Shown here: one piece after another, positions 15,096 to 17,930 of the stretch | Layout of the letters: each line of letters begins with the position of its first letter | How positions within the stretch are numbered: position 1 is the first letter of the stretch | Sequence record: OZ370879.1 | DNA length: 40,787 bases | Reading direction: 5' to 3' (one strand) | DNA from: a phage | The notes under the pieces: generated by a model | The model's database searches: none | Seen by the model: the letters and a program-made list of their open reading frames with translations, nothing else | What the model was told of the DNA's origin: nothing | Translations under genes and position numbers: made by a program

Positions 15096-15686
15096 TTAGC
15101 GAGTCAGTAGACCAGAAGTGAACGCATCTCCATCCAGCATATTGTACCCACCGTAGTCCATCTCATACTCCATGCAGAGACGTCTAGCCTCATCTTCCTC
15201 TTCTTGGAGTACACCCTCTACTTCCGGTGCCCCAAAGAATCGGTTGTTGAACTGACGGGAAGCCTTGGTGACAATCCAGTAACGGAAGCACTCAGGCATC
15301 TCATCGTAGTCGCGGAGACGAATAATGTTCACAGTAATACCAGAGTCAAAGCGGTCTGATTGACTCGTTCGGTCATACACATAGCCACCTCGGTTAACGT
15401 AGATGGATTGACCGGAAGTAGACATTAGGGATAAATAGTCGTCACTGTATACAATCAGGTTGGAGTAAACATCAGGTAGTAGCGTTATGCCTTCCTCAAT
15501 GTTGAACGTCCATCCACGAGATTGAATCTGTCGGTTAATCTTGTTGAGAATACGCCGAGCGTTCGCTGCATCTGCGTTAGCGTCACCTTCCAGCGTTGAT
15601 ACCGGAGGTTCACCGATAGACGCCAGAATGTCGTTCACAGCTGATAACTCAGCGGCAGTCTCAACGTTCATATCGTATGAGCGCAT
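15096..15686 (-). CDS. 11: Tail tubular protein A (gp11, 196 aa)
   Basis: 196-aa [24 protein letters not shown]...; RBS aaaggagg upstream; matches T7 gp11. Confidence 0.95.
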
Positions 15687-15703: not shown

Positions 15704-15748
15704 CAAAAAACCCCTCAAGACCCGTTTAGAGGCCCCAAGGGGTTATGC
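15704..15748 (-). terminator. T7 late terminator Tphi
   Basis: Sense strand reads tagcataaccccttggggcctctaaacgggtcttgaggggttttttg: a GC-rich hairpin followed by a U-run, identical to the terminator carried by pET vectors. Confidence 0.9.
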
Positions 15749-15828
15749 TAGTTATTGCTCAGCGGTGGCAGCAGCCAACTCAGCTTCCTTTCGGGCTTTG
15801 TTAGCAGCCGGATCTCCTAAGGCTCGAG

Positions 15829-16591
<763 letters not shown>

Positions 16592-16616
16592 CGGGATCGA
16601 GATCTCGATCCTCTAC

Positions 16617-16745
16617 GCCGGACGCATCGTGGCCGGCATCACCGGCGCCACAGGTGCGGTTGCTGGCGCCTATATCGCCGACATCACCGATGGGGAAGAT
16701 CGGGCTCGCCACTTCGGGCTCATGAGCGCTTGTTTCGGCGTGGGT
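16617..16745 (+). pseudogene. tetA: Fragment of pBR322 tetracycline-resistance gene tetA (about 43 internal codons), plasmid backbone remnant
   Basis: Plus strand translates to [46 protein letters not shown]; preceded by agatctcgatcc, the BglII site and destroyed BamHI junction typical of pET vectors. Confidence 0.85.
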
Positions 16746-16806
16746 ACAGAGGCCTAAGAGTGCTTTGTACTGTATGGCTCCGGTTTGGAATGTTTGCCAC
16801 GTGTTT
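16746..16806. other. 61-bp linker of unassigned origin between the gene 10A stop and the vector fragment
   Basis: Matches neither the recalled T7 sequence after gene 10A nor pBR322; contains StuI aggcct and PmlI cacgtg. Confidence 0.5.
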
Positions 16807-17844
16807 TTACTCCACTTTGAAAACCACTGCACCAGCAGCTTCTGGGCGAAGACCACCGTGGCCCATTGCGTACTTAGCGATAATCTGGTCCGCTTGGAAG
16901 TTAGCACGGCGAGCGCGCTCCAGAGCCAAGTCACGCAGCTTAACAGTACCTACCGCAGAGCGGTGCATGAACAGGCCGATAACGTTGTCCTTAGCAACCT
17001 TGACATTACCCTCACCTTTATTGGCAGGGAAGACGTGCTTCTGACCAGTAGTGCCCTCACGAGCGGTACCAGCACCACCAGCGGTGAGGTGCGGAACTTC
17101 TACAACCTCAAAGCCCATAACGTTGCGGATAGAACCCTTCTCAGGGTCAATCAGAGCAGCGTAGTTTGCTGCGTTCGGCATCAGTGCTGCCAGAATCGCA
17201 GAGTAGCTATCTGGGTCACAGTAGAACACACGGTCAGCAGCCGGAACATAGTTCTTGGTCAGAGCCGCACGAGCCTTAGTCAGAGCCGCAATAATCTCCT
17301 TACCCAGCGCAACTTGGTCGGTAAGTGCGGCCTTGTTCTGAGTGGTCTCAATTACGGTAGCAGTACCTAAGCCCTCGATGTTCTCATTATATTTGCTTTC
17401 CACGTTACACAGACCGGCAATCTCAGCCAGAACCGCACCATCCGCAGCCATCGCCAGAGATTCACCCAACTGAGAGGTATACTCAGAGCGAACGTCGTAG
17501 TGGTTCATCGCGTCCTCAATATCATAAATCAGAACGTCAGCCGTCAGGAGACCGTCAATGGTGATTACCTTCTCGGTGTGTTTGATGTCCTTACGTTTAT
17601 CGTCGAGGTTCTCGCCCGGAGCCAGATACGCTGCCTGAGTGCGACCCAGAACAGGGAACTGAGCGGATTTACCGCTGGAGATGGAACGTACCATGTGGCG
17701 AGAAGTGGTCACGGAGGTACGAGCGAACGCAGTCAGGACTTCACCGCCAAATACCTTCAAGAACAACGCCAGTTTATCTCCAGCAGCAACTACACCTTTA
17801 CCTTGGTTAGTACCCATTTGCTGTCCACCAGTCATGCTAGCCAT
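16807..17844 (-). CDS. 10A: Major capsid protein (gp10A, 345 aa)
   Basis: ORF MASMTGGQQMGTNQGKGVVAAGDKLALFLKVF...AVVFKVE, start inside NdeI catatg; matches T7 gp10A. Confidence 0.95.
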   Translation of the reverse strand: MASMTGGQQMGTNQGKGVVAAGDKLALFLKVFGGEVLTAFARTSVTTSRHMVRSISSGKSAQFPVLGRTQAAYLAPGENLDDKRKDIKHTEKVITIDGLLTADVLIYDIEDAMNHYDVRSEYTSQLGESLAMAADGAVLAEIAGLCNVESKYNENIEGLGTATVIETTQNKAALTDQVALGKEIIAALTKARAALTKNYVPAADRVFYCDPDSYSAILAALMPNAANYAALIDPEKGSIRNVMGFEVVEVPHLTAGGAGTAREGTTGQKHVFPANKGEGNVKVAKDNVIGLFMHRSAVGTVKLRDLALERARRANFQADQIIAKYAMGHGGLRPEAAGAVVFKVE

Positions 17845-17847
17845 ATG

Positions 17848-17930
17848 TATATCTCCTTCTTAAAGTTAAACAAAATTATTTCTAGAGGGAAACCGTTGTG
17901 GTCTCCCTATAGTGAGTCGTATTAATTTCG
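17848..17930 (-). promoter_or_regulatory. Native T7 class III promoter phi10 with gene 10 leader and RBS (promoter core 17902..17924)
   Basis: Exact consensus promoter followed by the s10 leader; 83 bp identical to 16509..16591. Confidence 0.9.

What the first reader, a model, noticed from the sequence alone, without database searches (positions are those of the whole stretch)
16746..16830. Native gene 10B frameshift extension is lost and replaced by a 21-codon tail
In wild-type T7 a -1 ribosomal frameshift near the end of 10A (at GGTTTTC) yields the minor capsid protein 10B with a 56-residue extension. Here the slippery region is intact, but the -1 frame now reads QSGVKTRGKHSKPEPYSTKHS and stops inside the linker. 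Any frameshift product would carry this novel tail rather than the native extension.
Basis: partly seen in the sequence, partly recalled or inferred. Interest (0 to 1): 0.5.

Follow-up and report, generated by a model that had tools for sequence, protein, structure and literature searches.

The report
Cloning scar replaces T7 10B tail
The window is a laboratory-built T7 phage carrying a GFP reporter directly after the capsid gene, so the rare frameshifted capsid protein would end in 17 amino acids read from a synthetic assembly primer instead of its natural tail; this is a by-product of cloning, not new biology.

Summary
Gene 10A (16807-17844, minus strand) is identical to wild-type T7. The slippery heptamer G_GTT_TTC (16819-16825) is intact and in phase. 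The -1 frame reads QSGVKTRGKHSKPEPYSTKHS and stops at TAG (16754-16756), giving a 363-aa product instead of the 398-aa 10B.

The cause is engineering. The window is a whole T7 genome, reverse-complemented, from the Noireaux laboratory's PHEIGES lineage. A T7-promoter/deGFP cassette replaces T7 bases 24005-24105.

Window 16747-16836 is, base for base, the published PCR primer gp10-oho1-as. That primer is a 60-nt synthetic "orthogonal" assembly overhang plus the last 30 nt of 10A. The 17 new residues are an unplanned reading of that overhang. The same junction is in GenBank PP384393.1, where only 10A is annotated.

The product is probably very rare. The native sequence just 3' of the site is deleted. 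The Tphi terminator, reported to stimulate this frameshift, now lies 1081 nt from the slip site instead of 184 nt. A published construct with the same heptamer followed by foreign sequence shifted in under 1% of translations, against about 10% in wild type. 10B is non-essential.

The finding is real but ordinary, and of low interest.

The parts
16807..17844 (-). T7 gene 10A, major capsid protein, 345 aa. The protein is identical to wild type.
   Evidence: ORF list; identity to V01146 10A; annotation of the homologous records.
16819..16825 (-). Slippery heptamer G_GTT_TTC of the gene 10 -1 frameshift (Val341-Phe342), intact and in the native phase.
   Evidence: Single occurrence in 10A with correct phase; alignment to wild type.
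16754..16819 (-). The -1 frame reached after the slip: 21 codons (QSGV + KTRGKHSKPEPYSTKHS) at 16757-16819, then TAG at 16754-16756.
   Evidence: Translations.
16747..16806 (-). Synthetic 60-nt 'orthogonal homology overhang' oho1, used to join the reporter cassette to the genome. It encodes the 17 new tail residues and the stop codon.
   Evidence: Exact match to the 5' 60 nt of primers oho1-mcherry-s and gp10-oho1-as in PHEIGES Supplementary Data. The same 60 nt occur at the gene 1 and gene 17 insertion sites in PP384397 and PP384395.
16747..16836 (+). Footprint of PCR primer gp10-oho1-as (90 nt). It nearly coincides with the finding's coordinates.
   Evidence: Exact string match to the primer listed.
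16507..16746 (-). Sequence derived from plasmid T7p14 upstream of the reporter: a pBR322 tet(C) fragment, BglII site, T7 promoter (16563-16585), 5'UTR and RBS.
   Evidence: tet(C) hits begin at window 16746; alignment to the PP384393 cassette, with 'T7 promoter added' annotated there; sequence read.
15829..16506 (-). Reporter gene: a truncated eGFP of 225 aa (M + eGFP residues about 6-229). This matches the deGFP variant used by the Noireaux laboratory; the variant name is from my own knowledge.
   Evidence: ORF; PDB sequence search, E about 1e-155 to eGFP, query 2-225 = eGFP 6-229.
15704..15808 (-). Terminator fragment equal to T7 bases 24106 onward. It holds the orphaned last 19 codons of the native 10B frame (15752-15808) and the single Tphi hairpin (15704-15744).
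   Evidence: Genome comparison and string searches.
15096..15686 (-). Native gene 11 (tail tubular protein A). The wild-type sequence resumes here.
   Evidence: ORF; annotation of homologous records.

Best explanation
This is an engineering scar in a published type of recombinant T7. It comes from the PHEIGES lineage of the Noireaux laboratory and is most likely T7-GFP-S*.

A T7-promoter/deGFP cassette was joined immediately after the 10A stop codon through a synthetic 60-nt assembly overhang (oho1). On the other side it is fused through the Tphi terminator sequence that the cassette and the phage share. This removed T7 bases 24005-24105, which are the first 101 nt after the 10A stop and most of the 10B-specific reading frame.

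The slippery heptamer lies inside 10A and was untouched. A ribosome that slips -1 at G_GUU_UUC therefore reads four native codons (QSGV), then 17 codons of the overhang (KTRGKHSKPEPYSTKHS), and stops at a chance TAG. That gives a 363-aa, 38.5-kDa capsid variant with a basic tail (pI about 10) instead of the acidic 56-residue native tail (pI about 4.7).

The sequence facts above are shown directly. Three further steps are inferred. The tail was neither designed nor selected. The frameshift is now much rarer than the native ~10% (probably under 1%), because the native 3' context is gone and the Tphi element is about 900 nt further away. The loss of 10B is tolerated because 10B is dispensable.
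For: The window's reverse complement aligns with T7 V01146 25-24004 and 24102-39913 at >99.9% identity, with 995 foreign bases in between.

The 10A/cassette junction is identical over about 300 nt to PP384393.1, 'recombinant T7_mCg10o'. That record annotates only 10A and no 10B.

Window 16747-16836 equals primer gp10-oho1-as, and 16728-16806 equals the reverse complement of primer oho1-mcherry-s, both from PHEIGES Supplementary Data. The same 60 nt are present at the gene 1 and gene 17 insertion sites of sister constructs, so it is a generic assembly handle and not a gene-10-specific design.

The reporter is a truncated eGFP. PMC12808745 describes T7-GFP-S*, with egfp replacing mcherry at this position and an RdLPS-specific tail fibre. 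The window carries gp17 S541R and a change at gp12 position 784, the markers of the laboratory's T7-rfaD-1 lineage.

[quoted passage not shown] The distance from slip site to Tphi is 184 nt in wild type and 1081 nt here. The plasmid p10-EYFP has the same 10A end through the TAA followed by foreign sequence, and it shifted in under 1% of translations against about 10% in wild type (PMC1635266). The predicted local structure 3' of the site is weaker here: -16.4 kcal/mol (z -1.1) against -25.8 kcal/mol (z -1.6) in wild type. Over 231 nt the z-scores are +0.17 and -2.69.

10B is described as not essential (PMC5592923).
Against: No expression data exist for this construct, so the residual frameshift rate is inferred from a different construct (a plasmid carrying EYFP) and from a review's summary of Condron et al. 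1991. I could not read that primary paper.

The identification with accession OZ370879 could not be checked, because that record is not in the searchable collections.

The designed downstream overhang (oho2) is absent, so the genome is not exactly what the published primer set for the orthogonal design would give. This does not affect the 10A junction.
Confidence: 0.93

Rival explanations
1. The frameshift still runs at roughly the native level (about 10%). The virion would then carry tens of copies of a 363-aa capsid protein with a basic tail, changing the capsid surface.
For: The heptamer and all upstream sequence are unchanged. The Tphi hairpin with its CCCC is still on the same mRNA, only further away. 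Frameshift fusion products are incorporated into capsids (PMC1635266).
Against: The same heptamer and 10A end followed by foreign sequence gave under 1%. The native 101 nt after the stop codon, including the predicted local hairpin, are deleted. The terminator is 1081 nt away instead of 184 nt. No strong structure is predicted 3' of the site in the new context.
Confidence: 0.06
2. The tail was designed on purpose, as a display peptide or tag on the minor capsid protein.
For: The same laboratory made gp10B-FLAG display phages (PMC10933291).
Against: The 60 nt are named an 'oho' overhang in the primer tables and are used unchanged after genes 1, 10 and 17. The supplementary figure legend says the orthogonal oligonucleotides were introduced to stop leaky assembly of phage lacking the insert. 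The word 'frameshift' does not occur in the main text of the paper. The depositors annotate only 10A.
Confidence: 0.01
3. The junction is a sequencing or assembly artefact of a long-read assembly, and the real phage has an intact 10B.
For: The genome is reported as nanopore-sequenced. The window lacks 24 nt at each end relative to V01146.
Against: The junction matches an independently deposited genome base for base and matches the published primers. A GFP cassette cannot arise by misassembly.
Confidence: 0.005

Closest known systems
Wild-type T7 gene 10A/10B programmed -1 ribosomal frameshift (V01146: 10A 22967-24004, 10B to 24162)
   Same: Identical 10A. Identical G_GUU_UUC heptamer in the same phase. 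The first four post-shift residues are the same (QSGV).
   Different: The 56-residue acidic extension is replaced by a 21-residue basic tail. The 101 nt after the stop codon are deleted. Tphi is at 1081 nt instead of 184 nt. The product is 363 aa instead of 398 aa.
PP384393.1, recombinant T7_mCg10o (PHEIGES; PMC10933291)
   Same: The same 10A-oho1-plasmid-T7 promoter junction, base for base, and hence the same predicted 363-aa -1 product. A single Tphi and no oho2.
   Different: It carries mCherry plus a polylinker/His-tag remnant instead of deGFP. There is one base difference in the 5'UTR (window 16542). It has a wild-type tail fibre and gp12, whereas the window has gp17 S541R, gp12 E784G and gp16 R561K/G909S.
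p10-EYFP helper plasmid (Slootweg et al. 2006, PMC1635266)
   Same: The native 10A 3' end with GGTTTTC through the TAA, followed directly by foreign sequence in the -1 frame. It is a direct functional precedent for the bare site out of its native 3' context.
   Different: It is expressed from a plasmid. The -1 frame continues into EYFP (a 70-kDa fusion) rather than a 21-residue tail. The frameshift rate was measured there (under 1%) but not here.
T7Select display vectors (Novagen); recalled from my own knowledge, not tested here
   Same: Engineered T7 in which the native 10B C-terminal extension is removed and replaced by vector-encoded sequence.
   Different: As I recall, the frameshift site is removed in T7Select and the capsid protein is made in-frame up to residue 348 plus a cloning site. 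Here the slip site is intact and the new tail is reachable only by frameshifting.

Membership tests
T7 gene 10 programmed -1 frameshift (10A/10B) | Slippery heptamer G_GUU_UUC at codons 341-342 of gene 10, in the correct phase | tested here: met
   Window 16819-16825 (-), single occurrence, with the first G at the third base of codon 340.
T7 gene 10 programmed -1 frameshift (10A/10B) | A -1 frame encoding the native 56-residue 10B extension | tested here: not met
   The -1 frame gives 21 residues, of which 17 are foreign, then TAG. T7 24005-24105 is deleted.
T7 gene 10 programmed -1 frameshift (10A/10B) | 3' stimulator: native downstream sequence with the Tphi terminator (CCCC) about 200 nt from the shift site (PMC5009743, citing Condron 1991) | tested here: not met
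   Tphi is 1081 nt from the heptamer here, against 184 nt in V01146. The intervening native sequence is replaced. Predicted folding 3' of the site is weaker.
T7 gene 10 programmed -1 frameshift (10A/10B) | A frameshift product made at about 10% of gp10 and present in virions | not testable with these tools
   This needs protein analysis. The nearest precedent gave under 1%.
PHEIGES-engineered T7 reporter phages (Noireaux laboratory) | The 60-nt synthetic overhang oho1 immediately after the stop codon of the upstream gene | tested here: met
   Exact match to primers gp10-oho1-as and oho1-mcherry-s.
PHEIGES-engineered T7 reporter phages (Noireaux laboratory) | Cassette from plasmid T7p14 (tet(C) remnant, T7 promoter, strong RBS, reporter, T7 terminator) | tested here: met
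   Alignment to PP384393; tet(C) match; eGFP match.
PHEIGES-engineered T7 reporter phages (Noireaux laboratory) | 'S' host-range background: gp17 S541R together with a change at gp12 residue 784 (T7-rfaD-1) | tested here: met
   AGT->AGA at T7 36246 (S541R) and GAA->GGA at T7 27192 (position 784). The paper's description is; it writes the change as G784E, the opposite direction to V01146.
PHEIGES-engineered T7 reporter phages (Noireaux laboratory) | Identity to the deposited T7-GFP-S* genome (OZ370879) | not testable with these tools
   The accession is named in PMC12808745 but is not in the searchable collections. The paper's supplements are not held.

The most novel reading that the evidence does not exclude
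The bare heptamer, with its terminator partner moved about 900 nt away, still shifts often enough (about 0.5-2%) for a few copies per capsid of the 363-aa, basic-tailed gp10 to be assembled. These reporter phages would then be an accidental test of how the long-range Tphi stimulator of gene 10 frameshifting depends on distance. They would also carry an unintended surface peptide that might slightly alter capsid charge or behaviour in the synthetic-cell binding assays.
Probability: 0.25. Interest if true: 0.2.

Novelty: already known. Interest (0 to 1): 0.07.

Why it matters
It matters only in practical terms. Users of these reporter phages (T7-mCherry and T7-GFP from the PHEIGES lineage) should know two things. 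The virions lack native gp10B. They may also contain trace amounts of a capsid protein ending in KTRGKHSKPEPYSTKHS. This is relevant for proteomics databases, for anti-capsid reagents and for anyone planning gp10B display in this background. For genome annotation, the 10B join feature should not be transferred to this genome. It reveals no new biology.

Tried and rejected
(1) I tried to read the primary frameshift papers: Condron 1991 NAR (PMC328964), Condron 1991 J Bacteriol (PMC209055) and Sipley 1991 (PMC5952207). None is held. The statement about the 3' stimulator therefore rests on the 2016 review, and the efficiency estimate on Slootweg 2006.

(2) I searched the plasmid collection for the origin of the 'linker'. 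Only the tet(C) part (window 16746 and below) matched, and the 60 nt had no plasmid source. This was later explained by their synthetic origin.

(3) I looked for the second designed overhang (oho2) in the window and found none, allowing up to 3 mismatches. The right-hand junction therefore runs through the shared Tphi sequence rather than oho2.

(4) I looked for the supplements of PMC12808745 to confirm the exact construct. None is held.

(5) I considered a fortuitous RNA structure in the overhang acting as a new stimulator. The predicted folds are weak and not different from shuffled sequence, so I rejected this as unlikely.

(6) I considered deliberate design of the tail. I rejected it because the same overhang is used at three unrelated loci.

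Full report
**What is in the sequence**

The region lies on the minus strand. The 345-aa ORF at 16807-17844 starts MASMTGGQQMG and ends AVVFKVE*. Its protein is identical to T7 major capsid protein 10A.

GGTTTTC occurs once in the gene, at 16825->16819. It is phased so that GTT is Val341 and TTC is Phe342, as in wild type.

Translating the -1 frame gives ...G F Q S G V K T R G K H S K P E P Y S T K H S *. The tail codons lie at 16819-16757 and the TAG at 16756-16754. The 0 frame stops at the native TAA.

The -1 product would be 342 + 21 = 363 aa (38.5 kDa). Native 10B is 342 + 56 = 398 aa (41.8 kDa).

Two refinements apply.
- QSGV is native, because it overlaps the unchanged 3' end of 10A. Only 17 residues are new.
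- The last 19 codons of the native 10B frame survive at 15752-15808, beyond the GFP gene, where gene 10 translation cannot reach them.

A run of 17 foreign codons before a stop is what a random frame gives (about 21 on average), so the length of the tail carries no signal.

**What the window is**

The reverse complement of the window aligns with T7 (V01146) over 25-24004 and 24102-39913 at more than 99.9% identity. Between these blocks are 995 foreign bases. True identity on the right resumes at T7 24106, so T7 24005-24105 (101 nt) are missing.

The insert reads, in gene order:
- 60 nt with no source in the plasmid collection; the phage collection holds them only in the three engineered T7 records PP384393, PP384395 and PP384397;
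- a pBR322 tet(C) remnant;
- a BglII site, a T7 promoter, a pET-type 5'UTR and an RBS;
- a 225-aa truncated eGFP (query residues 2-225 = eGFP 6-229);
- an XhoI site;
- the terminator fragment, which merges seamlessly into native Tphi and gene 11.

**Provenance**

The best phage hit is PP384393.1, 'Mutant Teseptimavirus T7 clone recombinant T7_mCg10o'. It has the same junction base for base from 10A to the reporter's ATG, apart from one base in the 5'UTR. That record annotates 10A only, with no 10B.

PP384393.1 belongs to the PHEIGES paper from the Noireaux laboratory (PMC10933291). The paper's supplementary primer table lists two relevant primers:
- oho1-mcherry-s: AAACACGTGGCAAACATTCCAAACCGGAGCCATACAGTACAAAGCACTCTTAGGCCTCTG + tacccacgccgaaacaagc
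- gp10-oho1-as: CAGAGGCC...CACGTGTTT + ttactccactttgaaaaccactgcaccagc

Window 16747-16836 is exactly gp10-oho1-as. Window 16728-16806 is exactly the reverse complement of oho1-mcherry-s. The finding's coordinates (16746-16830) are therefore essentially the footprint of one PCR primer.

The 60-nt upper-case part is a synthetic 'orthogonal' assembly overhang. It was introduced to stop leaky assembly of insert-less phage (supplementary figure legend). The same 60 nt follow gene 1 and gene 17 in sister constructs PP384397 and PP384395. The sequence is a generic handle, not something designed for its reading frame.

A later paper from the same laboratory (PMC12808745) describes T7-GFP-S*. In that phage egfp replaces mcherry at this position, and the phage carries an RdLPS-specific tail fibre. 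It was nanopore-sequenced and deposited as OZ370879.

The window carries gp17 S541R and a change at gp12 residue 784. These are the two markers of the laboratory's T7-rfaD-1 host-range variant. I could not compare the window directly with OZ370879, so 'T7-GFP-S*' is a strong inference rather than a demonstrated identity.

**How it most likely works**

Shown directly: a ribosome that slips -1 at G_GUU_UUC reads four native codons, then 17 codons of the overhang, and terminates. The new tail is basic (pI about 10.2, net charge about +4). The native tail is acidic (pI about 4.7, net charge about -3).

Inferred: the event is now rare, for four reasons.
- That terminator is 184 nt from the heptamer in wild type and 1081 nt here. 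The native 101 nt directly after the stop codon are gone.
- Predicted folding agrees with a loss of structure. The first 80 nt 3' of the site fold to -25.8 kcal/mol in wild type and -16.4 kcal/mol here. The 231-nt wild-type segment is more structured than its shuffles (z -2.69), while the engineered one is not (z +0.17). These are predictions only.
- The closest experimental precedent is p10-EYFP. It has the native 10A end through GGTTTTC...TAA followed by foreign sequence. It shifted in under 1% of translations, against about 10% in wild-type T7, and the product was still incorporated into infectious capsids (PMC1635266).

Scaling under 1% to the 415 capsid proteins per phage head that Slootweg et al. 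cite gives at most a few copies per virion.

10B is reported as not essential (PMC5592923). This fits the good growth of these reporter phages.

**Rivals**

- Near-native frameshifting (about 10%) is unlikely for the reasons above. It is not excluded without protein data (confidence about 0.06).
- Deliberate design of the tail is contradicted by reuse of the overhang at three loci. In addition, the main text of the paper never mentions frameshifting.
- An assembly artefact is excluded by the match to an independent GenBank record and to the published primers.

**Comparison with what is known**

The site keeps one defining feature of the T7 10A/10B recoding site, the heptamer in phase. It fails two others: the native -1 ORF and the native 3' stimulator geometry. 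The fourth feature, product abundance, cannot be tested here. It is best described as a disabled or vestigial 10B frameshift site in an engineered genome. It meets all testable features of the PHEIGES reporter-phage family.

**Verdict**

The feature is a cloning scar in a published engineered phage, and the same junction is already in GenBank. Novelty: already known. Interest: low (0.07).

The only open point is quantitative: how much of the 363-aa species is made. Targeted mass spectrometry or a western blot of virions would settle that.

Noticed in passing
window 1-40787: The window is a complete engineered T7 genome in reverse-complement orientation. It starts and ends 24 nt inside the V01146 ends, so the terminal repeats are trimmed to 136 nt. 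This is typical of a long-read assembly.
   Followed up: yes
window 15704-15830: The published orthogonal design for the gene 10 site has a second 60-nt overhang (oho2) followed by T7 sequence from about base 24070 (primer gp10-oho2-s). Neither oho2 nor a second Tphi copy is present here or in PP384393. Instead the cassette's own terminator fragment (T7 24106 onward) runs straight into gene 11. The right-hand junction seems to have formed through the roughly 120-bp homology between the cassette and native Tphi, either during assembly or by recombination in the phage.
   Followed up: partly
window 3668 and 3662 (gene 17, minus strand): The tail-fibre gene carries AGT->AGA (S541R), a known substitution allowing infection of deep-rough LPS hosts. 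A synonymous TCA->TCT change lies two codons later (S543), possibly a primer-borne marker.
   Followed up: partly
window 12722 (gene 12), 7638 and 6595 (gene 16): gp12 E784G relative to V01146; the laboratory's papers write this change at the same position as G784E. gp16 has R561K and G909S. None of these is in PP384393. The gp16 changes have no explanation in the papers read.
   Followed up: partly
window 18182 (gene 9) and 38916: gp9 N227S, and a 1-nt insertion after T7 base 1896 (the gene 0.6B region). Both are shared with PP384393, so they belong to the laboratory's T7 stock rather than to this construct. A synonymous change in gene 0.7 (window 38347) is specific to the window.
   Followed up: partly
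window 16542: The 5'UTR of the reporter reads TCTAGAAATAATTTTG (an intact XbaI site) here. PP384393 has TCTAGCAATAATTTTG. The deGFP and mCherry cassettes therefore come from slightly different plasmid versions.
   Followed up: no
window 16590-16746: About 150 nt of the pBR322 tet(C) gene travel with the cassette as a non-functional plasmid remnant between gene 10A and the added T7 promoter.
   Followed up: yes
window 16563-16585 and about 17885-17910: The added T7 promoter duplicates the phi10 promoter/5'UTR region: 84 nt are identical to T7 22881-22964. This creates a direct repeat flanking gene 10A, which in principle could delete the capsid gene by recombination. Such deletants would be inviable, so the repeat should be held stable by selection.
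   Followed up: no
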